From Acidobacteriota bacterium (GTDB lineage: Bacteria > Acidobacteriota > Thermoanaerobaculia > Multivoradales > JAHEKO01), in contig JAOTZA010000001.1 in assembly GCA_029861655.1 (NCBI GenBank), forward strand, positions 1-35,514: a stretch of 35,514 nucleotides of DNA. The letters run 5' to 3'. Under the pieces are notes generated by a model that saw nothing but the letters and a program-made list of their open reading frames with translations, searched no databases and was not told the origin of the DNA. This document shows, in pieces, positions 12,361 to 35,514 of the stretch. A program made the translations under genes and the position numbers. Positions within the stretch are counted from its first letter, which is position 1, and each line of letters begins with the position of its first letter.

Positions 12361-14100
12361 TCAGCCCAAATCAGACGCCGCCACCGGCAGTTCCACCACG
12401 GCCAGAGTCCCGCCGCCCTGGCGGTCTTCGAGCCGCAGCCGACCGCTGTGGAGGGTGACGATCCGATGGGCGAGCGAGAGGCCGAGACCGACACCATCGG
12501 GTCTGCCTGTCACAAAGGGCTCGAAGAGCCGCTCGCGGATCTCCTCGGGAATTCCCGCTCCGTGGTCCGCGATCTGTAAGATGACATCGTCGCCGTCACG
12601 CTCGAGGGCGACCTCCAGGGGGCCGCTTGATCTCACCTGACGCTCAGCTTCGGCCGCGTTGTGGAGCAGGTTGCGGATAGCCCGTTCCAGAAGCTGTGGA
12701 TCTCCCTGGATCGACGTCACACCCGGCGCCGAGGAGACCCTGACTTCGAGATCCGCCAGAGTCGGGTCGGCCGCGGCTCGCCGCGCCAGCGTCTCGAGAT
12801 CGAGCGCTTCCATCCGTGTGCTTCCGGGGCGCGCAAAGGTGAGAAAATCTTCGAGCACCCGCTGGAGATGATCGCTCTCGCGGCGGAGATCGGTCAGGTA
12901 CTCGCGCAGCGAATCTTCGTCTGGTTTTCTCTCGGCCAGCGCCAGATAGCCTCGAATCGTCGCCAGACCGTTGCGCATTTCGTGGGCTACGCCAGCGGCC
13001 AGCTCACTCACCTGGGTGAGGCTGACGGAGATTCTTTCCTCACGGGCTTTCTGGCGGATCTCGGTGAGATCGGCAAAGAGCATGAGGTGGCCGCGCGGCG
13101 GCGCGCCGTCTCTCTTCAAAGGATAGAGAGTCAGGCCAAGGGGTCGCGACTCGCCATGCGCCGTGATTTCGATTTCTTGTCTTTTCGCCGCTTCCGAGCT
13201 CTTGGCCGCACTCGAGATCAAGTCGAACAACTGTGGATGCGGCGCCAGGAACTCCCGTAGGGGAACGTCCGGCGCTTCCGGCGCTTCGAGGCCGAGAAGT
13301 TCGGCGCCGGCCGGGTTGAGAGCCAGGACTTCGGCTTCTCGACCGATCAGAAGAAGACCGCTCTCGAGGCTCGGCCCCAGAATCCCTTCGAGGGCGGCGA
13401 TCTCGTCGGACTCCGAGCGGCCCGCAAGGGCCTCGAGGGCCCTCTCGAAGGAGGAGACGAGAAAGGCCGTCTCGTCTTCGGAATACTCGTCACGCGGTCG
13501 AACTCTCTGGGCATGAGCCAACAACTGGTCCCAGGGTGCCAGCAGGTGACGAAGAAAGAACATCAACAGCAGGGCCAGGCTGCCGTTGGCCACCGAGACC
13601 ACCCATGTCAGTACCCACAGCCGGCTCTGCTCACCCATGAGCCGAGCGCTGTCGAGCTCGACCTGCACCAAGAGCCGCTGACTCTGCCGCAGAAACGGTG
13701 CCAGCGCCACGATCCGGCCCGCAGGCGATACGTCCGGCTCCAGCACCACGGGTTCCTCCAGAGCGCTAGCGTCGAGTTCGAAGCTCACTCCCGCGGTTCT
13801 CGACACCGTCTCGACCAGAACCTGGAGCGAGGGACCGAGGACGGCGATCCGCGCGGCGTGCGGCGCCCGCCACCGCAGCTCAGCGGCGACGGGAACGGCA
13901 CCCCCCGCGATCGATTCGGCGATTTCGCGGGCCAGCAGCTTCGCTTCCGCTCGTCTTTCGTCTGCCAGGATGTGGACGCTGTTGCGGTAGGACAAAAGCG
14001 TAAAGGTCGACAGCAGGACCATCAGCAGCAGCACGACCGGAAGGAGAATCAAGATCTCGCGGCGCAGGCCGAGTCGGAACCGCTGCGTCGGCCGGCTCAT
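12361..14100 (-). CDS. Sensor histidine kinase (2 TM, periplasmic domain, PAS, HisKA, HATPase)
   Basis: The start is placed at ATG 14100, an ATGA overlap with the prepilin peptidase stop. The 14101-14664 extension of the listed ORF overlaps pilD. It has an H-box (AAGVAHEMRNGLATIRGY), N-box (LLHNAAEA), G1 (DHGAGI) and G2 (GVGLGLS). Confidence 0.85.
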   Translation of the reverse strand: MSRPTQRFRLGLRREILILLPVVLLLMVLLSTFTLLSYRNSVHILADERRAEAKLLAREIAESIAGGAVPVAAELRWRAPHAARIAVLGPSLQVLVETVSRTAGVSFELDASALEEPVVLEPDVSPAGRIVALAPFLRQSQRLLVQVELDSARLMGEQSRLWVLTWVVSVANGSLALLLMFFLRHLLAPWDQLLAHAQRVRPRDEYSEDETAFLVSSFERALEALAGRSESDEIAALEGILGPSLESGLLLIGREAEVLALNPAGAELLGLEAPEAPDVPLREFLAPHPQLFDLISSAAKSSEAAKRQEIEITAHGESRPLGLTLYPLKRDGAPPRGHLMLFADLTEIRQKAREERISVSLTQVSELAAGVAHEMRNGLATIRGYLALAERKPDEDSLREYLTDLRRESDHLQRVLEDFLTFARPGSTRMEALDLETLARRAAADPTLADLEVRVSSAPGVTSIQGDPQLLERAIRNLLHNAAEAERQVRSSGPLEVALERDGDDVILQIADHGAGIPEEIRERLFEPFVTGRPDGVGLGLSLAHRIVTLHSGRLRLEDRQGGGTLAVVELPVAASDLG

Positions 14101-14867
14101 AGGAGACGGGAATAGAACTCGATCCAATGCCGGCCGAAGAAGAGGGCCAGGAGTGCCCCAACGGCCAGAAACACACCGAACGGTAGGCGCGACCGGGCCT
14201 CGAGCTTGCCCGGAATCATCAGGATGAGCCCCGTAAATGCCCCCAGGAGCGCGCCTGCTGCCAGCGTTACGGCGGCGCCTTTCCATCCGAGAAAGGCCCC
14301 GATCATGGCCAGCATGTTGACGTCGCCAAGACCCATTCCCTCCTCTTCGCGCAACCAGTACCAGAAGTTGATCAAGAGAATAAGCGCTCCTGCCCCGATC
14401 AGGACCCCGAGCACCGCTTCGAGGATCGTCGCATCGGGAAGGTAGGGTTGCAGGGCGAGCCCGACAAAGATCCCGGGCAGTGTGATCTTGTCGGGAAGAA
14501 GAAAATGTTCGGCGTCGATCGCCGCCAGCGCCACCAGCAGGGCGCAGAAGATCGCCGCCGCCGCCGCTTCGAAGCTTGGGCCAAAACGGGCGATGCAGGC
14601 CACAAACAGAGCGGCCGTCAGGGCTTCGATCAGTGGGTAGCGCCACGAGATGGGAGCGCTGCACCTACGGCAACGTCCGCGGAGCAGCAAGTAGCTCAGG
14701 AGTGGCAGGTTGTCGTGAGCGCGGATCGCCGAGCCACAGTAGGGGCAGCCCGATGTGGGTGACACGGTCGATCGCCCGCGAGGCAGCCGATGGATGACGA
14801 CGTTCAGAAAGCTGCCGACGATCAGGCCGAGCGCCAGGGCCGGGAGATAGAAATAGAGCTCAAACAC
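14097..14867 (-). CDS. pilD: Prepilin peptidase / N-methyltransferase (A24 family)
   Basis: It has GSFLNVVIHRLP, Cys pairs CPYCGSAI...CRRCSAPISWRYPLIE, and catalytic Asp contexts AAIDAEHFLLPD and GLGDVNMLAMIG. Confidence 0.9.
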   Translation of the reverse strand: MFELYFYLPALALGLIVGSFLNVVIHRLPRGRSTVSPTSGCPYCGSAIRAHDNLPLLSYLLLRGRCRRCSAPISWRYPLIEALTAALFVACIARFGPSFEAAAAAIFCALLVALAAIDAEHFLLPDKITLPGIFVGLALQPYLPDATILEAVLGVLIGAGALILLINFWYWLREEEGMGLGDVNMLAMIGAFLGWKGAAVTLAAGALLGAFTGLILMIPGKLEARSRLPFGVFLAVGALLALFFGRHWIEFYSRLL

Positions 14868-25557: not shown

Positions 25558-25632
25558 TACGAGCCGGGCGGCGTGCCAGTATAATCCTTTGGCGACAGGA
25601 CGTTAGAGGCGGGCCAGCTGCTAGACGATCCG

Positions 25633-26295
25633 ATGGGCCCGACCGTAAGAATCTTCGGGGAACAGATGCCGCACCTTGTCCACACCACCACCAAACCCGT
25701 TTCCGAGCAGCCGGCCGGCGACCGCGATCTTCTGCTGGCCATTCAACGAGGCGATGAGGAGGCCTTTGCCGAACTTCTCGACCGAAAGACCGGGCCGCTT
25801 CTGGCCCTCACCCATCGGATGGTTTGGGATCGTGAGGAGGCTCGAGATCTCGTCCAAGTGACCTTCCTGAGGGTTTGGGAGCACCGCCACAAGTTCGACG
25901 AACGCTTTAGCCCCAATACCTGGCTCTATAGAATCGCCACCAACCTGGCGATCGATTTTCTACGCGCTAAGCGCACCCGTTTGTCGAAGCTCGAGCCCGT
26001 GCGCCAGCATCTCTACCGGGTCGTCAAGCAACCCGACACGAATCTGGAGGAGATCCTCGAGCGAGACATCCTCTCGGTGCTCCAGGATCTGACATCGGCG
26101 CTGACCGAACGTCAGAGACTCGCCTTTGTTCTGGGGCAGATCGAGGGGTTGAGTACGCGGGAAGTGGCTTCGATTCTGGAGTGCCGGGAATCGACGGTGC
26201 GAAATCATCTCTTTGCGGCGCGCAAGGTCCTGCAGGGTGAACTGCTGCGGCGGTTCCCCGAATACGCCGGCCGCCGGAGGACCGGGAAGCAATGA
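25633..26295 (+). CDS. ECF-type RNA polymerase sigma factor (sigma-70 family group 4)
   Basis: Region 2 is DLVQVTFLRVWEHRHKFDERFSPNTWLYRIATNLAIDFLR. Region 4 is LTERQRLAFVLGQIEGLSTREVASILECRESTVRNHLFAARKVL. An alternative start is ATG 25666. Confidence 0.85.
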   Translation: MGPTVRIFGEQMPHLVHTTTKPVSEQPAGDRDLLLAIQRGDEEAFAELLDRKTGPLLALTHRMVWDREEARDLVQVTFLRVWEHRHKFDERFSPNTWLYRIATNLAIDFLRAKRTRLSKLEPVRQHLYRVVKQPDTNLEEILERDILSVLQDLTSALTERQRLAFVLGQIEGLSTREVASILECRESTVRNHLFAARKVLQGELLRRFPEYAGRRRTGKQ

Positions 26296-26807
26296 CGGCG
26301 TGTCCCGACTGGCAGAGAATCGCGCGCAGCGCGGACCGGTTCCTCGCCGAGGATTGCGCCGATCGCCGGAGGACCTTGCGACACATGGAAGCCTGTCCGA
26401 GTTGCCGCCGGTCGGCGCTCGAGTTGGATCCGACACTGGCGGTCGCGAATCTCCCCGCTGTCGAGGTCTCCAAGTCGGAAATCGAAGCGGTCAAGAGGCA
26501 GGTCCAGGCAATGCGGCGAGTCCGCGCCATCGAAGTCGGAAAACGCCGTCCGGTTCTGTCGCACGTGGCAGTCGTGATGCTGATGGTGGGGCTCGGACTC
26601 TTCCTGCCCGGCAGGGTCATTGACCCTGCCGGTTCTGTCGCCCAAGGCGGCGTGGGTGGCGGAGTCCTTTTTGACGAGGCAAGCCGGGAAGCCGCTTCAT
26701 CACTCGCGCTTGTCGAATCGATCACTCCTTCCACCGCCAGGATCTACCAACTCGATCAAGCAGATTTTCCGATCGTGATGATCGTCGACGAATCGATCGA
26801 TCTCTAG
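26292..26807 (+). CDS. Anti-sigma factor (zf-HC2 type, single TM)
   Basis: It has an ATGA overlap with the sigma gene. The H-x3-C-x2-C motif (HMEACPSC) lies in the N-terminal cytoplasmic part. One TM segment (VLSHVAVVMLMVGLGLFL) is followed by a short extracytoplasmic tail. Confidence 0.75.
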   Translation: MTACPDWQRIARSADRFLAEDCADRRRTLRHMEACPSCRRSALELDPTLAVANLPAVEVSKSEIEAVKRQVQAMRRVRAIEVGKRRPVLSHVAVVMLMVGLGLFLPGRVIDPAGSVAQGGVGGGVLFDEASREAASSLALVESITPSTARIYQLDQADFPIVMIVDESIDL

Positions 26808-26820
26808 ACGTGGTGATCTG

Positions 26821-27537
26821 TTGCCGAGGCCGCAGAGTTTTCTTGCTGTTTGCATCTTTGGCGCTTCTGCAGTGTGGCCTGTTTTATTGGCCGCCCAGAG
26901 CGAGAGTGGTAGAGAAGAAGTGGTGGTACATGCAGTGACGCTTCGACATCAACAGGCGGCCGAGGCGGTGGCGCTGGTCTACCCCATGCTCACCGACGCG
27001 GGCACGGTCGAATTACAGCCGGGCGGTAATACCCTGGTCCTGCGCGACGTGAGTTCATCGGTGGATCGCATACTGCCGTGTCTGCGCCGATTCGACCAGC
27101 CTTCGAGGAGTTTGCGGATCGCGGTTCAGATCGTCAGTGCCGGAGCCGCAGAGGCAGGAAAAGGGCCGGAACCTCAACTCTCGCCTGACGTTTTGGCGCG
27201 GCTACGGGAGCTTCTCCGTTATCGGAGCTACTCGCTTCTCGGCCGGGCCGAGTTGGAAGTGCCGGAAGGCCACGCCACAGCCTACGCAGTGGGTGAGGAA
27301 TATCAAGTCGATTTCCGTCTTGGCAAGCTGCTCGACGGGAGACGGCTCAACCTTCAGGGCTTCCGGGTCTTGCGTCAGGCGGATGACGGCGATCTCAAGC
27401 CGCTCATCCACACCAATCTCAACCTGAGCCTGGACCAGCCGCTGGTGTTGGGTCTGGCCAAGACCGAATCGAGCGACCGCGCCCTGATGGTTGTTCTCCA
27501 ATTCCTCGACATGAAGACGCGAACGGCGAGGAGGTAG
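26821..27537 (+). CDS. Small secreted secretin-like protein (one Secretin_N/N1-like domain plus a compact secretin-core-like region)
   Basis: 238 aa with a TTG start and a signal peptide (FLAVCIFGASAVWPVLLAAQSE). By eye it aligns with the large secretin in this window. NTLVLRDVSSSVDRILPCLRRFDQP matches NAIILRDTADKVKVAERIIDTIDKA. LLGRAELEVPEGHATAYAVGEE matches LLASPQVRISDGETASLTIGDS. Confidence 0.6.
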   Translation: MPRPQSFLAVCIFGASAVWPVLLAAQSESGREEVVVHAVTLRHQQAAEAVALVYPMLTDAGTVELQPGGNTLVLRDVSSSVDRILPCLRRFDQPSRSLRIAVQIVSAGAAEAGKGPEPQLSPDVLARLRELLRYRSYSLLGRAELEVPEGHATAYAVGEEYQVDFRLGKLLDGRRLNLQGFRVLRQADDGDLKPLIHTNLNLSLDQPLVLGLAKTESSDRALMVVLQFLDMKTRTARR

Positions 27538-27540
27538 CCG

Positions 27541-28758
27541 GTGGAGTTCGTCTGCACTCTCGGTACCCCGCAGGGCCGGGTGATCGAGGAGGTCCACGAG
27601 GCAGGTTCGGAGGAGGCGGCGCGCAAGGAACTCGTTCGCCAGGGGTATCACGTCTTCAAGATCCGTCGCGGCGGGGCGCTCGGGTCGTTTTCCCTTCCGC
27701 GTTTTGGGCGCCGCGGACGACGCATCTCGGAAGAGACACTCTTGCTTTTCAACCAGGAACTCGCGGCGCTGCTGCGGGCAGGGCTACCCATTCTCCAGGC
27801 GCTCGAGATCATGCTGCGACGTCAGCGAGAACCCCTCTTCCACGAGGTGCTGACTCAGGTGCGTTCGAAGGTGGAAAATGGCGCCGATCTTTCGGATGCG
27901 TTCGAAGATTTTGCCGATCTTCTTCCGCGGATCTATCCGCAAACCCTCAAGGCCGGTGAACGGAGTGGCGAACTCGAGCAGGTTATCCGTCGTTTTGTTC
28001 GCTATCAATCGCTGGTTACGTCAACTCGCCGCAAGGTGGTTTCTGCACTCGTCTATCCGGCGCTCTTGGTCGCCCTCTCGTTGGCCCTGATCGGCGTGAT
28101 GACCGTTTTTGTGGTTCCCAAGTTCAGTGATTTCTTCTCCAACATGGAGTCGGATCTGCCGTTGATCACGCGGGTCACGGTGGCGGTGTCGGCTTTCTTG
28201 GGCGACAACTGGCTATGGATGTCACTGGCGGCCCTGGCGGTCGTGATCGGCGCGACGTCTCTGAGCCGTTCGCGCCGCGGCGCGCAGATGCTCGGAGCCT
28301 TGAGGCTCAGGCTGCCGCTTCTTGGGAATCTCTTTCAGAAAATGGCTCTCTCCGAGTTCAGTCGTGCCCTCTCAACGCTACTCTCCGGCGGCATTCCGCT
28401 GGTATCGGCCCTCGAGAGCTCGGTCGAGGCGGTCAGTAACGTGCACATTCGCAGGCAACTGGAGCCGACGGTGGCAGCGGTCCGAGAAGGCAATGCGCTT
28501 CACGCCTCCCTCGAAGCCAGCGGAGTGGTCCCGGAGGTTGTGATTGAGATGGCTACCGTCGGGGAAGAGACGGGAGACCTCGATACGATGCTCACCAACG
28601 CCTCCGAGTTCCTGGATGAGGAGGTCGAAACAAGCTTGCAGCGGATCCTGACATTGCTAGAACCCCTGCTACTCGTGATGATGGGTGTCATCGTGGCGAT
28701 CCTATTGGTTTCCATCTACCTTCCTCTCTTTAGCGCCTTGGGGCAGGTGCGGTCTTGA
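27541..28758 (+). CDS. pilC: GspF/PilC-family inner-membrane platform protein
   Basis: 405 aa. GTG start with AGGAGG 7 nt upstream. It has two GspF-type repeats (FNQELAALLRAGLPILQALEIM...; FSRALSTLLSGGIPLVSALES...) and three TM segments. Confidence 0.9.
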   Translation: MEFVCTLGTPQGRVIEEVHEAGSEEAARKELVRQGYHVFKIRRGGALGSFSLPRFGRRGRRISEETLLLFNQELAALLRAGLPILQALEIMLRRQREPLFHEVLTQVRSKVENGADLSDAFEDFADLLPRIYPQTLKAGERSGELEQVIRRFVRYQSLVTSTRRKVVSALVYPALLVALSLALIGVMTVFVVPKFSDFFSNMESDLPLITRVTVAVSAFLGDNWLWMSLAALAVVIGATSLSRSRRGAQMLGALRLRLPLLGNLFQKMALSEFSRALSTLLSGGIPLVSALESSVEAVSNVHIRRQLEPTVAAVREGNALHASLEASGVVPEVVIEMATVGEETGDLDTMLTNASEFLDEEVETSLQRILTLLEPLLLVMMGVIVAILLVSIYLPLFSALGQVRS

Positions 28759-28794
28759 AGAGAGGCAAACTGGAAAGCGGGCCGGAGGCTGACC

Positions 28795-30429
28795 ATGGAT
28801 GAGCCCTTGACCACCGTGTGGAATGGTTCGGAGCCGCCGAAGGCGGACCCGGAGGAAGAGCGCCGGAGCGCCCGGCGGCTGGCGGAGTCGTGCGGGCTCG
28901 AATTCGTGGAGATGGACGATTTTCGGATCGACAACGATCTCTTCCGCTCGGTGCCGTTCGAGTTGATGCTGCGGTACGAGTTTCTTCCCGAGCGCCAGGA
29001 GGACGACCGCTTGTCGCTGGTCATGGCCGATCCTTCGGACATCACCAAGCTCGATGAGCTCGAGCTACTGATCGGCCAGCCGCTGGAGGTCAAGGTCGGT
29101 GCCCGCGGCGTGATCGAAGAGATCCTGGAGAAGTCTGAGAGCGCTCAGCGCGTGCTCGACGAGGCCACCGAGGACTTCCGCATCCAGCTTGTTCAGGACG
29201 ACGGCAACAGCGACGAAGTGCTGTCCATAGACCGTATCAGCGCGGACTCGAGCCCGATCATCAAGTTGGTCGACTCGACAGTGCTCAACGCCATCCAGAG
29301 ACGCGCGAGTGATATCCACATCGAGACCCGAGACAGCGAGGTGGTTGTCAAGTACCGAATCGATGGCGTCCTGTACCAGGCGATGGAGCCGATCGACAAG
29401 GCGCATCACCAGACCATCGTCAGCCGAATCAAAGTGATGTCAGAGCTCGATATCGCCGAGAAACGTGTGCCCCAGGACGGTCGTTTCAAGGTGCGCTACC
29501 AGGGCCGCACCATCGACTTCCGTGTTTCGATCATGCCTTCTGTGCACGGGGAAGATTGCGTCGTCCGTATTCTCGACAAAGAGTCGATCAGCGAGGAGTT
29601 CAAGAACCTTCGTCTGACAGTTCTCGGTTTGGATGACGACACGGTTCACAAGTTCCGAAAGTTCATTCGTGAGCCCTACGGGATGGTGCTGGTGACCGGG
29701 CCGACCGGGTCGGGTAAGACAACGACACTCTACGCCTGTCTTTCCGAGATCCAGTCCTCGGAGGACAAGATCATCACGATCGAAGATCCGGTCGAGTACC
29801 AGCTCAAGGGGATCACCCAGATCCCTGTCAACGAGAAGAAGGGTCTCACCTTCGCCCGTGGCCTACGTTCGATCCTTCGTCACGACCCGGACAAGATCAT
29901 GGTGGGTGAGATCCGCGATCAGGAGACCGCGGCGATCGCCGTTCAATCAGCCCTCACCGGTCACTTGGTCTTCACAACGGTCCATGCGAACAACGTCGTT
30001 GACGTACTGGGCCGGTTTCTCAACATGAAGGTGGATCTGTACAATTTTGTCTCGGCGCTCAACTGTGTTCTGGCGCAGCGCCTGGTGCGGAGAATCTGCG
30101 AGCATTGCAGGGCAGCCGTGGTGGTTTCCGACCAGCTGCTCGAGGAGAGCGGCTTGACACGGGAGCAATGTGAGGACGTGGACTTTTTCGAAGGACGTGG
30201 TTGTGTCGAATGCAGTGGAACCGGATTCCACGGCCGCACGGCCATTTCCGAGCTACTGGACCTTTCGGACCGGATTCGAGAGTTGATCCTCGAGCGCCGG
30301 CCGGCGTCGGAGATCAAGCGGGCAGCAGGTGAGGAAGGGATGATCTTTCTGCGGGAATCGGCCCTGAAGAGAGTGTTCGACGGAGTAACTACACTACGTG
30401 AGATCAATAAAGTTACCTTCGTGGATTAG
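28795..30429 (+). CDS. pilB: GspE/PilB-family secretion/pilus extension ATPase
   Basis: It has a T2SSE_N-like N-terminus, Walker A VTGPTGSGKTTT, Asp box IITIEDPVEY, Walker B IMVGEIRD, His box LTGHLVFTTVHAN, and the tetracysteine CEHC...CVEC. Confidence 0.9.
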   Translation: MDEPLTTVWNGSEPPKADPEEERRSARRLAESCGLEFVEMDDFRIDNDLFRSVPFELMLRYEFLPERQEDDRLSLVMADPSDITKLDELELLIGQPLEVKVGARGVIEEILEKSESAQRVLDEATEDFRIQLVQDDGNSDEVLSIDRISADSSPIIKLVDSTVLNAIQRRASDIHIETRDSEVVVKYRIDGVLYQAMEPIDKAHHQTIVSRIKVMSELDIAEKRVPQDGRFKVRYQGRTIDFRVSIMPSVHGEDCVVRILDKESISEEFKNLRLTVLGLDDDTVHKFRKFIREPYGMVLVTGPTGSGKTTTLYACLSEIQSSEDKIITIEDPVEYQLKGITQIPVNEKKGLTFARGLRSILRHDPDKIMVGEIRDQETAAIAVQSALTGHLVFTTVHANNVVDVLGRFLNMKVDLYNFVSALNCVLAQRLVRRICEHCRAAVVVSDQLLEESGLTREQCEDVDFFEGRGCVECSGTGFHGRTAISELLDLSDRIRELILERRPASEIKRAAGEEGMIFLRESALKRVFDGVTTLREINKVTFVD

Positions 30430-31366
30430 GGGATTGGCGGGTCTAAAACCCTCCGCCGTGCCACCTCACGTGTTTGCGGTCGATGGCGACCGTCTTCGCT
30501 ACGCCCGGTTCCACCCGGACAGGCGGGGGCTCGAGCTGCGCGAGTACTGGAGTGAGGATCTCGAGCCCGGTCTGTTCCCCGAGGGGCAACTCGCCGGTCC
30601 GGCCCGCGACGCTCACCGTCTCGACGAAGCGCTGAAAGCCCTGCTCGAACGATCGAGCCTGACCGTGCACGAGGCCTCCCTCGTACTGCCGGATCGTTGG
30701 CTGCGATTGGCTTCGACCGAAGCCGCTGACGTGCCCCGCAAGGGGCGAGATCGGGCTGAGGTTATTCGGTTCAAGCTGAAACGACTGGTGCCCTTTCGGG
30801 TCGAGGATCTGCGCGTCGCGGATCTCGAGGCTGCCGGGACGGACGACAGCGGGGCGCGCCTGCTGCTTGGCTTTGCTTCCGAGGCTCTGCTCACTCAACT
30901 CGAGGATGTCTTTGCCGGAAACGGGGTCAGAATCGGCCAACTCTCCAACGAAGGTCTGTCGCTTCTTGTCGCCTTGCAAGGTGCGCTTGCCGGTCAGGAG
31001 ACCGGAGTTCTGCTCCACGCCACCAACGAGAGCTACAGCGTGATCGTGGCGCGGCGTGGTGCGCCGATTCTCCATCGGTTCAAGTCGCTAACCCAGACGG
31101 AACCGAATTGGGACCTGGTGGTGCGCGACCTCAAGCTCACTCGTCGATTCGTCGTGTCACAATCGCAAGTTGTGCCCTTGGCCGAGGTCACTTTTGTCGG
31201 TTCTCCCGAGGTGGAGGCGGGCTGGAGCCGAGCGGTGGAGAGGGCGTTCGAAGTGCCCGTGCGCAGCGTGGCGAGCGAGTGGGAGGAGATACCCGGAACG
31301 GTGGAGGGTGTTTCGCCCGTGCAGGCGGCGCCCCTTCTGGGCGCGGCCGCCCGGACGATCAGGTAA
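30398..31366 (+). CDS. pilM: PilM-like (actin-fold, GspL-cytoplasmic-domain-like) assembly protein
   Basis: Its position is immediately upstream of the PilN-like gene. The pattern is typical of PilM-family proteins (LVLPDRWLRL..., FKLKRLVPFRVEDL, LLGFASEALLTQLEDVFAGNGVRIGQL, VLLHATNESYSVIV). The start is ambiguous: GTG 30398 (32-nt overlap with pilB) or TTG 30434. Confidence 0.65.
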   Translation: MRSIKLPSWIRGLAGLKPSAVPPHVFAVDGDRLRYARFHPDRRGLELREYWSEDLEPGLFPEGQLAGPARDAHRLDEALKALLERSSLTVHEASLVLPDRWLRLASTEAADVPRKGRDRAEVIRFKLKRLVPFRVEDLRVADLEAAGTDDSGARLLLGFASEALLTQLEDVFAGNGVRIGQLSNEGLSLLVALQGALAGQETGVLLHATNESYSVIVARRGAPILHRFKSLTQTEPNWDLVVRDLKLTRRFVVSQSQVVPLAEVTFVGSPEVEAGWSRAVERAFEVPVRSVASEWEEIPGTVEGVSPVQAAPLLGAAARTIR

Positions 31367-31371
31367 TCGGC

Positions 31372-32034
31372 ATGAACCGCAATGATCTAAATCTTTCACG
31401 GCGACCGTTTGCCAACCTGCGCCCGCTCAAGCGGGTCTCGCTGCTGCTCTGGTTGGCTGGCGGCCTGATGCTGGTGCTCAACGTACGGAATTACTGGAGT
31501 CACTTCAGCGGCGAGAACCAGGCACGCTCCCGAATGTTGGAGATCGAGCGTGAGCTCGGCGCCGAGAAAGACGCCGTAGGAGAGCTTAGGCGTGAGGTCG
31601 GTGGGCTCAATCTCGAGACGCTCAACGAGCGCAGCCGGTTTGTCAATGAGAAAATCGAGCAACGCACTTTTTCGTGGAGCTCGCTCTTCGATCGATTGAC
31701 CGAGGCGCTGCCCAACGACGTGCGCCTATCGAGCTTGACGCCCAAGTTCGACAGGAAGAGAAGATCAGGACGCGCGGGAGAGAACCTCGGGATGGGGGAA
31801 GTGGGCTTGGAGATTTCGGGGGCCGCCAAGAATGATGAGGCTTTGCTTGCGCTTGTGGACGCTTTCTTCGAACACGGTTCCTTCAGAGAGCCGGATTTGC
31901 AGAGCGAAGACAGAGGAGACGATGGTCTCCTGGAGTTCGAGCTTTCCGTGATCTACCGGCCAGGAGCCAGTGCCGAGACCGACCCTGAGCCGCCCGGCGG
32001 CGTATCGCCGGCCAGCGCGGAGGCCGCGCCTTGA
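31372..32034 (+). CDS. pilN: PilN-like bitopic assembly protein
   Basis: The start is placed at ATG 31372. The listed ORF from 31108 overlaps pilM. It has the N-terminal LNLSRRPF motif (the INLLP-type PilM-binding peptide), one TM segment, a coiled-coil, and a C-terminal ferredoxin-like region. Confidence 0.7.
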   Translation: MNRNDLNLSRRPFANLRPLKRVSLLLWLAGGLMLVLNVRNYWSHFSGENQARSRMLEIERELGAEKDAVGELRREVGGLNLETLNERSRFVNEKIEQRTFSWSSLFDRLTEALPNDVRLSSLTPKFDRKRRSGRAGENLGMGEVGLEISGAAKNDEALLALVDAFFEHGSFREPDLQSEDRGDDGLLEFELSVIYRPGASAETDPEPPGGVSPASAEAAP

Positions 32035-32639
32035 GTTTCGAGCCGGGCGTCTGGGGGCGTAACGCAAGGATCTGGGTCCCGGGACTGGTTTTCTTGCTGT
32101 TGAACGGCGCTCTATTGCTGGCCTACCGGGTTGCTCTCGCAGAAGAAGCCGATATGGGGCGGGCAAGGCTCGCCAGGCGTGCGGACGAACTGGACGCGCT
32201 CCGGGAGGAGAGGCGCTCTCTCGCGGATGTGCTGGAGCGAGCGGCGGAAATCGAGAAAGGCTTGGATGATTTCTACACCCTGCGCCTCGCGACGGAGAAT
32301 GTTGCCCTCACAAGGATCATCGCCGAGGTCAAAGATCTGTCGCGCCGGGCCGGGTTGGTGCCGGCGCAGATCGACTACGCCAAGGAGACCTTCAAAGAGG
32401 AAGACTTGTTGCGTCGCTCGATCGAGTTTCCGGTCGATGGGGACTATGCGGCGCTTCGCCGGCTGGTCAACTTTCTCGAACTCTCGGACTCGTTTTTGGT
32501 GCTGGAGAGTGTCGGTCTGCGCGGCGAGAACGAAAACACGCTGGCGCTCAACATCTCGCTACAGATTGCGACGTTTTTTGCGACCGGATCCACACACTCG
32601 CGAGGCGTCCGGGGCGAGGCCGCGGAGACGACCGAATGA
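32031..32639 (+). CDS. pilO: PilO/GspM-like bitopic assembly protein
   Basis: It has a TTGA overlap with pilN. One TM segment (IWVPGLVFLLLNGALLLAY) is followed by a coiled-coil and a C-terminal domain ending ...LALNISLQIATFF, typical of PilO/GspM. Confidence 0.65.
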   Translation: MSFEPGVWGRNARIWVPGLVFLLLNGALLLAYRVALAEEADMGRARLARRADELDALREERRSLADVLERAAEIEKGLDDFYTLRLATENVALTRIIAEVKDLSRRAGLVPAQIDYAKETFKEEDLLRRSIEFPVDGDYAALRRLVNFLELSDSFLVLESVGLRGENENTLALNISLQIATFFATGSTHSRGVRGEAAETTE

Positions 32640-33193
32640 GCGGTGAACGGCGTCGGGGAATTCTCCTGGTGGCTCTGGCTGCGCTCCTCGCGTTTGCAGC
32701 CGTGCGTTTTGGTGGAGCGCTGCTCTCGGGCCGTGGTGGCACAGGGTTCTCTCCTCCGGACAGCCCCGCAGACAATCAATCGAGAATCGATCTTCCGCAG
32801 TTCGTAGAGCTGCGTTTGGGTGAGCTTGAGAACAAACCAGCAGAATTCAATCCTGGTCGCGATCCGTTTGGTTTTTATACCCCGCCGCCCCCGCCGCCCC
32901 CTCCGGCGCCCCCGCGCCAAAAAGCTCCAACAGGCCGACCGCAACCAAAACCGGCGAGCACGACTCCTCAAAAACCCAAGCCGCCACCTGTTACGGTTAC
33001 GTTTCTGGGCAGTTTTGGGCCTGTGGACAGACGAATAGCAGTGTTCACGGACGGCAATGATCTCTACAATGCGCGAGTGGGTGACGTCGTCAAGGAGCAT
33101 TTTGTCGTCGACAACATCGGTTTTGAGTCCTCTGATTTGAAATACGTCAACTTTCCCGAGGAGCCACCGGCACGATTGGCGGTCGGCGGTTGA
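32636..33193 (+). CDS. PilP/GspC-like secretin-contacting protein (TM-anchored, poly-proline linker, C-terminal beta domain)
   Basis: It has an ATGA overlap with pilO, an N-terminal TM anchor with no lipobox, a linker PPPPPPPPAPP...KPKPPP, and the C-terminal VTFLGSFGPVDRRIAVFTDGNDLYNARVGDVVKEHFVVDNI resembling the PilP/GspC HR domain. Confidence 0.55.
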   Translation: MSGERRRGILLVALAALLAFAAVRFGGALLSGRGGTGFSPPDSPADNQSRIDLPQFVELRLGELENKPAEFNPGRDPFGFYTPPPPPPPPAPPRQKAPTGRPQPKPASTTPQKPKPPPVTVTFLGSFGPVDRRIAVFTDGNDLYNARVGDVVKEHFVVDNIGFESSDLKYVNFPEEPPARLAVGG

Positions 33194-33195
33194 GA

Positions 33196-35514
33196 ATGAC
33201 TCGAGAGATCCATGGAGTGGTTGTGAGAAAGAAGACAACGGTCTCTGTCCTGTGCCTACTGGGGCTTCTCGTCCTCGTCGGTTGCTCGGGCCATCAAGCC
33301 CTGCGCGCGGCACGCCAAGCCGAGCTGGTTGGCGACTGGGATCAGGCGGTCCTCAAGTATCTCGAGCTCTCCAATCGCTATCCGGACAGAGTGGAGTACC
33401 GGACCGGTCTGTTGCGCTCCAAGATCCGCGCCTCGCAGGGCCATTTTGAGAAGGGCAAGAAGTTTGTGGAGGCCGGCGCTCTCGAGCGTGGGTTTGCGGA
33501 GTACCAGCAGGCCGTGCAGCTCGATACCACCAACCAGTATGCGCAGATCGAGATGGAGAAACTGCGGGAAGTTCTGTTGCGGGACGAAGAGAGTCGCGCG
33601 GCGCCGGGTAATTTGAAGGACATCAAGGCGCGCAACCGAGGTGCGCGAGCGCAGCCGCCGGAGTTGAACCCCCGTTCGATCGAGCCGATCTCGCTCGAGT
33701 TCCCTAAACCGGTATCAGTCTTCGATATCTACAAGGCTCTCGGCCGCGCCTTCGGAATCAACGTGCTATTCGACCCCAAGTTGCGAGATCAGCAGATCGC
33801 GATCGAGCTGCGCGACGTCGTGGCGCAGGATGCCCTCGAGATCCTCATGCGTACCGCGAGCCACTTCTACAAGGTGGTCGACGAGCATTCGATCATCGTC
33901 GTCGAGGACAACCCGCAAAATCGCCGCAACTATGAGGATCTGGTCATCCAGACCTTCTTTCTATCCAACGCCGAGACGAAGGATGTTCTGACCATGCTAC
34001 GAAGCCTGGTGGGGGCGAAGAATATTGCTTCCTCGGATCAGCTCAACGCGATCATCCTGCGGGATACGGCCGACAAGGTGAAAGTCGCGGAGCGGATCAT
34101 CGACACCATCGACAAAGCGCGTGGCGAGGTCGTTGTCGACGTGGAGCTGCTGCAGATCAACACCAGTGTGCTCCAGGATCTCGGTGTGCGGCTCTCCGAG
34201 TACTCGGTGACGCAGCGACTCGATCAGCCCGAAGGTGGGATTAGGGTTTCCGACCTCGAGTTCATCAACCAGGGTAACTGGTTTCTGAATATACCCAGTT
34301 TTGTCTACAACTTCATGAAGACAAGCTCCGAAGCCGAGCTGTTGGCCAGCCCACAGGTGCGGATCAGCGACGGCGAGACCGCCTCGCTGACGATTGGCGA
34401 CAGCGTGCCGATTCCGGTCACTAGTTTCAATACCTCCCAGACAGTGGGTGGCAATATCGTTCCGCTGACTTCCTTCCAGTACCGAGACGTCGGTATCCGG
34501 GTCGAGATCGAGCCGCGGATTCATCACAACCGAGAGGTGACCTTGAAGATCACCGTCGAGGTGAGCAACCTCGGTGAGTCGATTCAGGCTGGAACTCAAG
34601 AACAGCCGGTCATCGGTACGCGGAATTTCGAATCGACGATCCGGCTCAAGAACGGTGAGACAAACTTTCTCGCGGGTCTTATCCGGACCGATGAGTCGCG
34701 CGACCAGGTCGGAGTCCCGGGTCTCTCCGACGTGCCAGTGCTGGGGCGGCTCTTTTCCAACAAAGGAACCGACAGGAGACGGACGGATCTCGTGCTGACC
34801 CTGACGCCGCACATCATCCGGACCGCCGATATCTCCGAGGAAGATCTGCTTCCAATCTGGGTCGGGACGGAAGCCAACATCACCTTCCGTGGCGGTAGTC
34901 CTCGCGTTGAATCAGAGGTGGAAGGCCCCTTCGAGCGCGAGGACGAGACCGACGCCGAACGGATTCGCGAAATGATCCGACGCAGGATCCAGAACCTTCC
35001 CAGAGGATTGCAGAATGAGGACACCGAGGAAGAGGATAAAGCGCCACCGGGGGTCGATCTGACGCCGGCGGCAGCGCCCTCCGATCCGTTCCGAAGCGAT
35101 GATGACGGAGAAGATGAGGACGATGACGGGGACCGAGCCTCGCTCGAACCGACATCGTTGATTTTTGTGCCCAGCGACAGAGGGATCTCCGACGAGATCT
35201 CGGTGGCGTCACTCAGCGCCGCTGCCGATGGCGAGGCGGTTTTGACCACGCCGGTGCGACTCCGACTGGCGCCGGCGAGTCTTCAGATCGGGCTTGGTGA
35301 CGAGCTCGATGTCACGCTCGAGATCCAGTCGGACGAAGCGGTTGCGCATCTGCCGGTAACTCTGGGTTTCGACCCGCGGGTGCTATCCGTGGTGCAGGTT
35401 TCGGGCGGTGATTTCCTTGACTCCCAACGCTCCGAGATCCTCGCCGATACTTCGGCCGCCGGGCGGCTTGTTCTGGGTGCCAGCCAGCTCGGAGAGGGCG
35501 GCGGTGTCATCGGC
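33196..35514 (+). CDS. Secretin (GspD/PilQ family) lipoprotein with N-terminal TPR-like module and C-terminal cohesin-like domain; 3' end outside window
   Basis: This ORF is not in the supplied track because it has no stop. My translation gives 773 open codons to base 35514. The likely true start is GTG 33223 (GGAG 7 nt upstream), giving VRKKTTVSVLCLLGLLVLVGC (lipobox LVGC). The secretin core includes LLASPQVRISDGETASLTIGDSVPIP, GIRVEIEPRIHHNREVTLKITVEVS, and GETNFLAGLIRTDES...VPGLSDVPVLGRLFS...DLVLTLTPHII. After the core come an acidic linker and LQIGLGDELDVTLEIQSDEAVAHLPVTLGFDPRVLSVVQVSGGDFL. Confidence 0.85.
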   Translation, partial: MTREIHGVVVRKKTTVSVLCLLGLLVLVGCSGHQALRAARQAELVGDWDQAVLKYLELSNRYPDRVEYRTGLLRSKIRASQGHFEKGKKFVEAGALERGFAEYQQAVQLDTTNQYAQIEMEKLREVLLRDEESRAAPGNLKDIKARNRGARAQPPELNPRSIEPISLEFPKPVSVFDIYKALGRAFGINVLFDPKLRDQQIAIELRDVVAQDALEILMRTASHFYKVVDEHSIIVVEDNPQNRRNYEDLVIQTFFLSNAETKDVLTMLRSLVGAKNIASSDQLNAIILRDTADKVKVAERIIDTIDKARGEVVVDVELLQINTSVLQDLGVRLSEYSVTQRLDQPEGGIRVSDLEFINQGNWFLNIPSFVYNFMKTSSEAELLASPQVRISDGETASLTIGDSVPIPVTSFNTSQTVGGNIVPLTSFQYRDVGIRVEIEPRIHHNREVTLKITVEVSNLGESIQAGTQEQPVIGTRNFESTIRLKNGETNFLAGLIRTDESRDQVGVPGLSDVPVLGRLFSNKGTDRRRTDLVLTLTPHIIRTADISEEDLLPIWVGTEANITFRGGSPRVESEVEGPFEREDETDAERIREMIRRRIQNLPRGLQNEDTEEEDKAPPGVDLTPAAAPSDPFRSDDDGEDEDDDGDRASLEPTSLIFVPSDRGISDEISVASLSAAADGEAVLTTPVRLRLAPASLQIGLGDELDVTLEIQSDEAVAHLPVTLGFDPRVLSVVQVSGGDFLDSQRSEILADTSAAGRLVLGASQLGEGGGVIG

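What the first reader, a model, noticed from the sequence alone, without database searches (positions are those of the whole stretch)
25633..35514. ECF-sigma-headed type IV-filament machine with hybrid T4P/T2SS composition and two secretin-family genes
Ten co-directional genes are packed with overlaps or very short gaps, so they read as one transcription unit.
- ATGA at 26292.
- 13 nt gap before 26821.
- 3 nt gap before 27541.
- 36 nt gap before 28795.
- Overlap or 4 nt at pilB/pilM.
- 5 nt gap before 31372.
- TTGA at 32031.
- ATGA at 32636.
- 2 nt gap before 33196.

The content does not fit a textbook T4aP or T2SS locus.
- The platform gene (pilC/gspF) precedes the ATPase.
- PilM and PilN are separate genes, as in T4aP. 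PilN keeps the LNLSRRPF PilM-binding peptide.
- The secretin-contacting protein is TM-anchored and proline-rich, like GspC, rather than a PilP lipoprotein.
- There are two secretin-family ORFs, one of 238 aa and one of more than 770 aa.
- No pilin or pseudopilin, prepilin peptidase or PilT-type retraction ATPase lies in the unit. The only pilin and pilD in the window sit 11 kb away in a separate sigma-54 locus.
- The whole unit is headed by an ECF sigma/anti-sigma pair.

Taken together this looks like a distinct, probably uncharacterised variant of the type IV filament superfamily.
Basis: partly seen in the sequence, partly recalled or inferred. Interest (0 to 1): 0.75.

Follow-up and report, generated by a model that had tools for sequence, protein, structure and literature searches.

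The report
ECF-sigma-driven type IV filament operon
This is a real, uncharacterised 13-gene operon, conserved across one class of Acidobacteriota, that builds a pilus- or secretion-type envelope machine under its own stress-type sigma factor and carries an unusual extra "mini-secretin" gene.

Summary
The window cuts the unit short. On the source contig and in relatives, three prepilin-type genes follow the secretin, so "no pseudopilin" is an artefact.

The 13-gene order is identical in about 20 Thermoanaerobaculia MAGs: ECF sigma, zinc-type anti-sigma, mini-secretin, platform, ATPase, PilM, PilN, PilO/GspM, Pro-rich membrane protein, secretin, three prepilins.

An ECF-type promoter (TAGACG-N16-CGTA) lies just upstream of the sigma gene in every locus that holds that region. 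It overlaps the ATG at 25633, so the sigma gene most likely starts at 25666. In several lineages the same motif recurs before the ATPase gene, which ties the sigma factor to the machine.

The composition is mixed:
- PilM is a true PilM by fold, and PilN is a separate gene.
- Platform, ATPase, secretin and prepilins score best against Gsp models, but all fall below the curated cut-offs for both T2SS and T4aP.
- The 238-aa protein is a shortened secretin paralogue.

Verdict: a new, lineage-specific variant of a known kind. Function is unproven, and whether the genome also holds a separate T4aP set could not be tested.

The parts
25622..25647 (+). ECF-type promoter motif TAGACG-N16-CGTA (-35/-10). 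It overlaps the ATG at 25633.
   Evidence: Exact motif upstream of the ECF gene in all loci holding that region. Across 24 non-redundant loci (302.7 kb) there are 22 hits, all on the + strand: 16 here, 6 in the gspF-gspE spacer, 0 elsewhere. Shuffles give a mean of 0.73. It is the only exact hit in the window.
25666..26295 (+). ECF sigma factor, revised start (the longest ORF starts at 25633).
   Evidence: Sigma70_r2 3.1e-17, Sigma70_r4_2 5.8e-13, TIGR02937 88 bits against a cut-off of 42.9. The conserved MPxLVH start with a GGGGA Shine-Dalgarno lies 19-23 nt after the -10 in all loci.
26292..26807 (+). Zinc-type (ZAS) single-pass anti-sigma factor with an invariant C-terminal tail.
   Evidence: H31-x3-C35-x2-C38 is invariant in 13 orthologues. 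One TM segment, a variable periplasmic linker, and an invariant end ARIYQL..VVMVVDESIDV. Weak NCBIfam anti-sigma hit, 4e-4. ATGA overlap with the sigma gene.
26821..27537 (+). Mini-secretin: signal peptide, N3-type secretin N-domain, and a shortened secretin-like beta domain.
   Evidence: AF2 model pLDDT 86.6. Foldseek best hits are whole secretins: pIV 2.6e-7, then InvG, PilQ, GspD. The profile hits M. xanthus PilQ N3 at 1.9e-9. hhalign against the large secretin gives E 9.4e-4, probability 22%, over N3 plus core, without the VPGLSDVPVLGRLF motif. The family has 198 clusters at 50% identity with E<=1e-30.
27541..28758 (+). Inner-membrane platform protein (GspF/PilC).
   Evidence: T2SSF 7.3e-53, two stretches. 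GspF 320.9 bits (cut-off 424) against PilC 276.9 bits (cut-off 700).
28795..30429 (+). Assembly ATPase (GspE/PilB type) with an N-terminal MshEN domain.
   Evidence: T2SSE 8.5e-128, MshEN 2.4e-17. GspE 536.6 bits against PilB 529.5 bits, both below their cut-offs. PDB: Geobacter PilB 420 bits, Vibrio GspE 352 bits. About 80% identical across loci where the other genes are 40-60%.
30398..31366 (+). PilM-type cytoplasmic actin-like protein (alternative start 30434).
   Evidence: No Pfam hit. Profile against Thermus PilM 2ych: 1.1e-4. AF2 pLDDT 85.7, pTM 0.86. Foldseek: PilM 5eoy 1.9e-19, 3jc8_Ma and 2ych TM 0.72; GspL-cyto 1e-10, TM 0.48.
31372..32034 (+). PilN, with the N-terminal peptide MNRNDLNLSRRPF.
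   Evidence: PF05137 5e-5, 23.7 bits against a cut-off of 22.8. Conserved position in all loci.
32031..32639 (+). PilO/GspM-family bitopic protein.
   Evidence: NCBIfam GspM_XpsM 4.5e-5. Of 13 orthologues, 7 hit PF04350 PilO (best 1.1e-4) and 6 hit T2SSM_b.
32636..33193 (+). TM-anchored, proline-rich protein with a conserved ~70-aa C-terminal beta domain. It sits in the PilP/GspC position, but its identity is unproven.
   Evidence: No Cys or lipobox, a PPPP linker, and a conserved C-terminal block. No Pfam or PDB match, even at profile level.
33196..35514 (+). Lipoprotein secretin, cut by the window end (831 aa in full): lipobox Cys30, TPR-like helices, N0-like domain, one N3 domain, secretin core, acidic linker, C-terminal cohesin domain.
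   Evidence: Secretin 2.8e-42, Secretin_N 1.5e-8. Cohesin 2e-7 on the full length. Cys30 invariant. TPR-consensus hits ~1e-4 and a weak PilQ-N0 hit. GspD 169.5 bits against PilQ 123.7 bits, both below cut-off.
14097..14867 (-). Prepilin peptidase PilD, the only one seen. It presumably processes the operon's prepilins (inference).
   Evidence: A24_N_bact 2.1e-34, Peptidase_A24 3.9e-19. No peptidase gene occurs in the 13-gene unit in any locus.

Best explanation
Window 25622-35514 holds the promoter and the first ten genes of a 13-gene operon conserved in Thermoanaerobaculia (Acidobacteriota). It encodes a complete type IV filament (TFF) machine under its own ECF sigma/anti-sigma pair.

Shown here:
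- The gene content and its order.
- An ECF-type promoter, TAGACG-N16-CGTA, directly upstream of the sigma gene in every locus that holds that region.
- The same motif before the ATPase gene in several lineages.

Inferred mechanism:
1. An envelope signal inactivates the membrane ZAS anti-sigma factor.
2. The freed sigma transcribes its own operon and with it the whole machine.
3. PilD, encoded 11 kb upstream, processes three GspG-like prepilins encoded just past the window end.
4. The GspE/PilB ATPase and GspF/PilC platform polymerise them.
5. PilM-PilN-PilO and the Pro-rich protein align the platform with a self-lipidated, TPR-bearing secretin. The mini-secretin paralogue acts as an accessory to that channel.

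No retraction ATPase is linked, and the filament genes are three short GspG-like paralogues, one of which lacks Glu5. I therefore think the machine most likely makes a short non-retractile endopilus, that is, T2SS-like secretion or surface display.

Architecturally it is a T4aP-style scaffold carrying T2SS-like filament and core proteins. It is not a clean member of either family.
For: - Ten ORFs with overlaps or gaps of 36 nt or less, and no terminator signal above chance (8 found, 9.0 expected).
- Three prepilin-type genes lie downstream: G|YTLAE, G|FTLLE (best hit GspG, 7.6e-14) and G|YNLVV. In the close relative L002 the unit then ends before a dUTPase gene.
- The order is identical in every locus long enough, among 23 Thermoanaerobaculia loci.
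- Promoter motif: 22 hits in 302.7 kb, of which 16 lie before the sigma gene, 6 before gspE and 0 elsewhere. Shuffles give a mean of 0.73.
- The ZAS motif is invariant.
- PilM fold, PilN, PilO/GspM.
- Secretin architecture.
- Mini-secretin.
- No second ATPase, platform or secretin within 10 kb in any locus or in the 35.5-kb window.
- Best NCBIfam hits are GspF, GspE, GspD, GspG and GspM.
Against: - Function is not shown. No substrate gene is linked.
- All Gsp scores are below the curated cut-offs, and GspE and PilB are practically tied at 536.6 and 529.5 bits.
- In the PDB the ATPase is closer to Geobacter and Myxococcus PilB than to Vibrio GspE.
- The secretin has only N0 plus one N domain, as in PilQ.
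- A sigma-54/PilSR-controlled PilA and PilD lie 10-11 kb upstream, and the neighbouring genes between are in conserved synteny. The machine could therefore be the cell's T4aP apparatus.
- Whether the genomes hold another PilB/PilC/PilQ/PilT set could not be tested.
- Co-transcription is inferred from sequence only.
- The promoter pattern, and in particular the looser -10 (CGT[AT]), was defined on these same loci.
Confidence: 0.55

Rival explanations
1. It is the organism's ordinary T4aP assembly machine (PilB, PilC, PilMNOP, PilQ). It assembles the sigma-54/PilSR-controlled PilA encoded 10 kb upstream. The three downstream prepilins are minor or priming pilins, and PilT lies elsewhere in the genome.
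For: - A true PilM fold and a separate PilN with the PilM-binding peptide.
- PilO Pfam hits in 7 of 13 orthologues.
- The ATPase is closest to PilB structures in the PDB: 405-420 bits against 340-352 for GspE.
- The secretin has N0 plus a single N domain.
- pilA, pilD and pilS lack their own pilB/pilC/pilMNOPQ, and the neighbouring genes between them and this cluster are in conserved synteny.
- T4aP genes are typically spread over several loci (PMC6668835).
Against: - Best curated-model hits are Gsp, not Pil, for platform, ATPase, secretin, prepilins and the PilO/GspM protein.
- The secretin has no AMIN domain.
- There is no lipoprotein PilP.
- No PilT lies within 10 kb in more than 20 loci.
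- Only three small GspG-like paralogues are present, not the usual minor-pilin set with PilY1.
- Regulation differs: an ECF sigma here against sigma-54 for PilA.
Confidence: 0.3
2. It is a canonical T2SS that is merely divergent in sequence.
For: - Organised as a single locus with no retraction ATPase.
- Top NCBIfam hits are GspE, GspF, GspD, GspG and GspM.
- T2SS have been predicted in many non-proteobacterial phyla (PMC6668835).
Against: - GspL is replaced by separate PilM and PilN.
- No recognisable GspC.
- No GspH/I/J/K set.
- The secretin lacks the N1-N2 domains.
- Every Gsp equivalog cut-off is missed.
- The platform gene precedes the ATPase gene.
Confidence: 0.08
3. The ECF sigma/anti-sigma pair is an unrelated neighbour, transcriptionally insulated from the machine genes.
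For: Only adjacency is directly observed. No expression data exist.
Against: - The pair is present at the same place in all 17 loci that include that region.
- No terminator signal.
- The gap to the next gene is 13 nt.
- The sigma gene's own promoter motif recurs in the gspF-gspE spacer in 6 lineages with the exact N16 spacer. Spacer-15 or TGGACG variants were seen by eye in 4 more.
Confidence: 0.05

Closest known systems
Type IVa pilus machine (M. xanthus / T. thermophilus / P. aeruginosa PilB-PilC-PilMNOP-PilQ)
   Same: - Separate PilM (actin-like) and PilN, plus a PilO-family protein.
- PilB-like ATPase with an MshEN-type N-terminus.
- Secretin with N0 plus one N domain.
- The TPR-lipoprotein module resembles the PilF/PilW/Tgl pilotins (my own knowledge).
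   Different: - No linked PilT and no AMIN domains.
- No lipoprotein PilP.
- Filament genes are three short GspG-like paralogues.
- All genes sit in one operon driven by an ECF sigma.
- Extra mini-secretin gene and a cohesin domain on the secretin.
- The PilB and PilQ curated cut-offs are not reached.
Type II secretion system (GspC-M)
   Same: - A single locus with no retraction ATPase.
- Best HMM hits for GspE, GspF, GspD, GspG and GspM.
- One prepilin lacks Glu5, like GspK.
   Different: - PilM plus PilN in place of GspL.
- No recognisable GspC, and no H/I/J/K set.
- Short secretin vestibule.
- F-before-E gene order.
- Below all Gsp equivalog cut-offs.
'Generic' or chimeric TFF systems and the Bacteroidetes (Cytophaga) 'T2SS' of Denise et al. 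2019 (PMC6668835)
   Same: These are systems with the key TFF components that do not fit the specific models. Some have components matching profiles of different types. The Bacteroidetes secretion system branches with T4aP rather than T2SS.
   Different: MacSyFinder was not run here, so placement is untested. That paper does not mention a sigma factor (a term search for 'sigma' found none). I saw no mini-secretin or cohesin-bearing secretin in the passages I read.
Cell-surface signalling (FecA/FoxA - FecR/FoxR - ECF sigma), PMC11637429
   Same: An ECF sigma, a membrane anti-sigma and an outer-membrane protein with a secretin/TonB-type (STN) periplasmic domain are encoded together. In cell-surface signalling the STN domain binds the anti-sigma's periplasmic C-terminus.
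   Different: Here the anti-sigma is ZAS-type, with only about 60 periplasmic residues and no FecR or STN domain. The outer-membrane partner would be a secretin or mini-secretin, not a TonB-dependent transducer. The interaction is purely hypothetical.
Slk secretin plug proteins of P. aeruginosa (PMC13392014)
   Same: They are small periplasmic proteins that act on the secretin channel. The authors speculate that other types of plug exist in bacteria that lack Slk.
   Different: No sequence relation was tested. The mini-secretin is itself a secretin paralogue.

Membership tests
T2SS (Gsp) | GspE, GspF and GspD reach the curated equivalog scores | tested here: not met
   TIGR02533 536.6 against 630.25; TIGR02120 320.9 against 424; TIGR02517 169.5 against 351.35.
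T2SS (Gsp) | GspL: one protein with a cytoplasmic actin-like domain, a TM segment and a periplasmic domain | tested here: not met
   Two genes. The PilM model matches PilM at 1.9e-19 (TM 0.72) and GspL-cyto at 1e-10 (TM 0.48). PilN is separate.
T2SS (Gsp) | GspC (HR domain plus PDZ or coiled coil) | tested here: inconclusive
   The Pro-rich TM protein sits in the right position but has no Pfam or PDB hit, even with profiles. No structure model was made.
T2SS (Gsp) | Major pseudopilin GspG plus minor pseudopilins GspH, I, J and K | tested here: not met
   Only three prepilins, and they are paralogues of each other. The best hit is GspG, but at 51.9 and 29 bits against a cut-off of 88.85. The third lacks Glu5.
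T2SS (Gsp) | Secretes folded periplasmic proteins | not testable with these tools
   No substrate gene is linked, and there is no experiment.
T4aP | PilB and PilQ reach the curated scores | tested here: not met
   TIGR02538 529.5 against 675.65; TIGR02515 123.7 against 284.35.
T4aP | Separate PilM, PilN and PilO alignment proteins | tested here: met
   PilM fold; PilN PF05137 above its cut-off; PilO PF04350 in 7 of 13 orthologues, best 1.1e-4.
T4aP | PilP lipoprotein | tested here: not met
   No Cys or lipobox, an N-terminal TM helix, and no PilP hit.
T4aP | PilT retraction ATPase | tested here: inconclusive
   None within 10 kb in any locus, nor in the window. The rest of the genomes could not be scanned.
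ECF sigma / ZAS anti-sigma pair | Sigma regions 2 and 4 only; anti-sigma with HxxxCxxC; co-transcribed; autoregulated ECF-type promoter | tested here: met
   Pfam and TIGR02937. H31/C35/C38 invariant. ATGA overlap. TAGACG-N16-CGTA conserved upstream. Promoter activity itself is not testable here.
Secretin (PF00263), for the 238-aa protein | Full secretin C-domain recognised by PF00263 | tested here: not met
   No PF00263 hit. Only remote similarity: hhalign E 9.4e-4 with probability 22%, and Foldseek 2.6e-7 to pIV. The domain is about half length and lacks the VPGLSDVPVLGRLF motif.
Secretin (PF00263), for the large ORF | Secretin core plus N-domains | tested here: met
   PF00263 144.6 bits and PF03958 35.2 bits, both above cut-off.

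The most novel reading that the evidence does not exclude
The operon is a self-monitoring secretin machine.

The gate-less mini-secretin co-assembles with, or caps, the large lipoprotein secretin, forming a two-component channel or a built-in plug.

The anti-sigma factor's invariant C-terminal tail (VVMVVDESIDV) docks by beta-strand addition onto an STN-type N-domain, or onto the cohesin domain, of these outer-membrane proteins. Assembly state or substrate engagement of the channel then directly controls release of the ECF sigma. This would be a secretin-based analogue of TonB-dependent cell-surface signalling.
Probability: 0.12. Interest if true: 0.8.

Novelty: new variant of a known kind. 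Interest (0 to 1): 0.5.

Why it matters
TFF machines are classified mostly from Proteobacteria. This is a well-conserved, complete, single-operon system from a poorly studied class of Acidobacteriota. It mixes a T4aP scaffold with T2SS-like parts and adds three features I found no description of:
- an in-operon ECF sigma/anti-sigma pair whose promoter motif recurs inside the machine genes;
- a shortened secretin paralogue;
- a secretin with a pilotin-like TPR lipoprotein head and a cohesin tail.

It offers a compact case for studying how T2SS-like and T4aP-like systems relate, how secretin channels are regulated or sealed, and how envelope machines are wired to ECF signalling. It does not by itself resolve a long-standing question, and many unclassified 'generic' TFF systems are already known.

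Tried and rejected
- Fetching the 33 kb of the contig upstream of the window. Two look-ups by exact protein failed, probably because the called starts differ.
- First genome scan with the 27-sequence alignment. 
- tblastn of the ATPase against plasmids, to collect labelled references for a tree. It gave only about 50%-identical 'GspE/PulE family' genes from Burkholderiaceae chromids, with no usable T4aP references, so I did not attempt a phylogeny.
- Profile searches of the Pro-rich protein and the PilO/GspM protein against PDB sequences found nothing. Pfam on all Pro-rich orthologues also found nothing.
I redid it with database homologues.
- Rfam on the window: no hit.
- Terminator and sigma-70 scans: nothing above chance.
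- Looked for a second copy of the ECF promoter in front of the mini-secretin gene. There is no conserved copy. The TAGACG at 26805-26810 in the window overlaps the stop codon and has no -10 partner.
- Cluster look-up to get the taxonomy of distant mini-secretin relatives returned no organism names.
- Literature searches for secretin plus cohesin, ECF plus T2SS in one operon, and Thermoanaerobaculia plus T2SS/T4P found no description of this system.

Full report
**Observation**

Pfam and NCBIfam give the following:
- an ECF sigma factor;
- a weak anti-sigma hit;
- a 238-aa protein with only a Secretin_N domain (27.1 bits, cut-off 28.2);
- a GspF/PilC platform;
- a GspE/PilB ATPase with an MshEN domain;
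- an ORF without hits;
- PilN;
- a weak GspM hit;
- a Pro-rich ORF without hits;
- a secretin.

Elsewhere the window holds a PilR-like sigma-54 regulator, a PilS-like kinase, PilD and a pilin. LPS genes (waaA, lpxK, an acyltransferase and a heptosyltransferase) lie divergently just upstream of the cluster.

**The unit is longer than the window**

The exact protein look-up places the window on ENA contig k141_868288 (69,940 bp), which extends 1,364 bp further. The full secretin is 831 aa and ends in a cohesin domain (PF00963, 2e-7).

Three prepilin-type genes follow it with overlapping starts:
- 154 aa, cleavage motif G|YTLAE;
- 144 aa, G|FTLLE, best NCBIfam hit GspG at 7.6e-14;
- a third, cut by the contig end, with G|YNLVV and no Glu5.

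In the close relative on a 3.99-Mb contig the third gene is 266 aa and is followed by a dUTPase gene, so the unit has 13 genes. The three prepilins are paralogues of each other. The claim 'no pseudopilin in the unit' is therefore an artefact of the window edge.

**Conservation**

The 238-aa protein has at least 331 database relatives. Those that carry an organism name are named Thermoanaerobaculia. A profile search finds 198 clusters at 50% identity with E<=1e-30, nearly all 220-290 aa and matched over their full length.

A scan of one genome per species returned 23 loci. All are MAGs labelled Thermoanaerobaculia, Ca. Multivoradales, Acidobacteriota/Acidobacteria, or in one case 'uncultured bacterium'.

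tblastn with the 13 proteins plus WaaA shows the same order in every locus long enough: waaA(-) | ECF, anti-sigma, mini-secretin, F, E, PilM, PilN, PilO/GspM, Pro-rich, secretin, three prepilins. No locus, and not the window either, holds a second ATPase (PilT-like), platform or secretin within 10 kb.

**Regulation**

Aligning the waaA-ECF spacers revealed a bipartite motif, TAGACG-N16-CGTA, directly before the sigma gene in every locus that holds that region. In the window it lies at 25622-25647 and overlaps the ATG at 25633. The conserved start is the ATG at 25666 (MPHLVH), preceded by GGGGA. In the loci I checked the -10 lies 19-23 nt before the start codon. By my own knowledge of Bacillus sigma-W-type sites, the motif has the form of an ECF promoter (xxxAC -35, CGTA -10).

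With the -10 relaxed to CGT[AT], 24 non-redundant loci (302.7 kb, both strands) give 22 hits, all on the coding strand. Sixteen lie before the sigma gene, six lie in the gspF-gspE spacer, and none lie elsewhere. Shuffles give a mean of 0.73. Four more loci carry spacer-15 or TGGACG versions at the F-E position, by inspection. The pattern was derived from these same loci, so the statistic is generous. The F-E copies were nevertheless not what the pattern was built on.

Terminator-like sites are not above chance.

The anti-sigma factor has an invariant H-x3-C-x2-C (ZAS) motif, one TM segment, a variable periplasmic linker and an invariant extreme C-terminus, ARIYQL..VVMVVDESIDV.

Together these results make an insulated, unrelated ECF pair unlikely. 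They support an autoregulated ECF operon that includes the machine. Transcription itself remains inferred.

**Components**

*PilM.* There are no family hits, but the orthologue profile finds Thermus PilM (1.1e-4). A confident AF2 model (pLDDT 85.7, pTM 0.86) matches PilM structures over their full length: 5eoy at 1.9e-19, and 3jc8_Ma and 2ych at TM 0.72. The cytoplasmic domain of GspL scores much worse (1e-10, TM 0.48). The PilM/PilN split is therefore real.

*PilO/GspM.* Seven of 13 orthologues hit PilO and six hit T2SSM_b.

*Pro-rich protein.* It has a TM anchor, no Cys, a PPPP linker and a conserved ~70-aa C-terminal block. It matches nothing. Calling it PilP- or GspC-like rests on position and topology only.

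*Secretin.* It has an invariant lipobox Cys30, TPR-like helices, an N0-like domain, one N3 domain, the secretin core, an acidic linker and a cohesin domain.

*ATPase.* GspE 536.6 bits against PilB 529.5 bits in NCBIfam, both below cut-off. In the PDB it is closer to Geobacter and Myxococcus PilB (405-420 bits) than to Vibrio GspE (340-352).

*Platform and secretin.* Both prefer the Gsp models but miss all the cut-offs.

**Mini-secretin**

The AF2 model (pLDDT 86.6) shows an N-domain followed by a beta-rich domain. Foldseek's best hits are whole secretins (pIV 2.6e-7, then InvG, PilQ, GspD). N-domain-only structures score about 1e-2.

The family profile aligns to the last N domain and first core strand of M. 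xanthus PilQ (1.9e-9). hhalign against the operon's large secretin aligns N3 plus the core up to LGLAKTESS/AGLIRTDES, at E 9.4e-4 but with a probability of only 22%. The core is roughly half the usual length and lacks the VPGLSDVPVLGRLF motif.

I read it as a shortened secretin paralogue. It is not a PF00263 member, and its role is unknown.

**Interpretation**

The system is a complete TFF machine with a T4aP-style alignment scaffold (PilM, N, O; a secretin with a short vestibule). Its platform, secretin core and filament proteins are T2SS-leaning, no retraction ATPase is linked, and it lies in a single locus. It fails the curated membership thresholds of both T2SS and T4aP.

Denise et al. (PMC6668835) describe hundreds of 'generic' TFF systems, including chimeric ones, and a Bacteroidetes secretion system that branches with T4aP. 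A mixed system is therefore not unprecedented.

I found no description of this operon, of an in-operon ECF pair for a TFF machine, of a mini-secretin, or of a cohesin-bearing secretin.

My preferred mechanism is an ECF-induced, non-retractile endopilus machine, meaning T2SS-like secretion or display. The main rival is that this is simply the lineage's T4aP assembly machine, serving the sigma-54-controlled PilA encoded 10 kb upstream. I could not scan the rest of the genomes to decide between them.

**Leads from the literature**

- In cell-surface signalling, secretin/TonB-type (STN) domains bind the periplasmic end of anti-sigma factors (PMC11637429). This suggests a testable role for the invariant anti-sigma tail.
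- Periplasmic Slk proteins plug PilQ in P. aeruginosa, and their authors expect other plug types in bacteria that lack Slk (PMC13392014). This suggests one possible role for the mini-secretin.
[quoted passage not shown] The location of the cohesin domain therefore depends on which type this secretin resembles.

All three are hypotheses.

**Verdict**

I rate this a new, lineage-specific variant of a known kind, of moderate interest.

Noticed in passing
window 15693-15678 (-), pilin 15608-14982 (-), PilD 14867-14097 (-): A near-consensus sigma-54 promoter (TGGCAC-N5-CTGCT) lies about 70 nt upstream of the real pilin start (ATG 15608, MMQRFNRRRGQKG|FTLIELL, 208 aa). The longest ORF (266 aa) overcalls the gene. 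This pilin also scores best against GspG (49.8 bits).
   Followed up: partly
window 25578-25585 (+), between waaA and the ECF promoter: A conserved AGTATAAT element occurs in almost all related loci, 40-150 nt upstream of the ECF-type promoter. It could be a housekeeping -10 for the sigma operon or, read on the other strand (TATACT), one for the divergent waaA. Sequences between it and the ECF promoter look partly palindromic.
   Followed up: no
gspF-gspE spacer in L007, L008, L013, L018, L024, L026 (and variants in L016, L017, L019, L020): A second copy of the ECF-type promoter motif lies in front of the ATPase gene wherever the spacer is long (100-350 nt). It is absent from the window and its nearest relatives, where the spacer is 36-70 nt.
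   Followed up: yes
window 28795-30429 and its orthologues: The ATPase is about 77-94% identical across loci where the other machine proteins are 35-60% identical. This is an unusually strong constraint relative to its partners.
   Followed up: no
window 26740-26807 (C-terminus of the anti-sigma factor): The last ~25 residues (ARIYQL..VVMVVDESIDV-COOH) are nearly invariant, while the rest of the periplasmic part is not conserved. This suggests a docking peptide.
   Followed up: partly
protein P0370: A 664-aa database protein matches the mini-secretin profile's N-domain in nine separate stretches. It appears to be a protein made of tandem secretin-N-type domains.
   Followed up: no
window 12361-14664 (-) versus 14097-14867 (-); 2800-4179 (+) versus 3675-5495 (+): The longest ORFs of the PilS-like kinase and the sigma-54 response regulator overlap their upstream neighbours (PilD and SelA) by several hundred nt. 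Their true starts must lie further downstream. The window also holds SelA and two tandem sulfatase paralogues (5532-7385 and 7392-9239).
   Followed up: no
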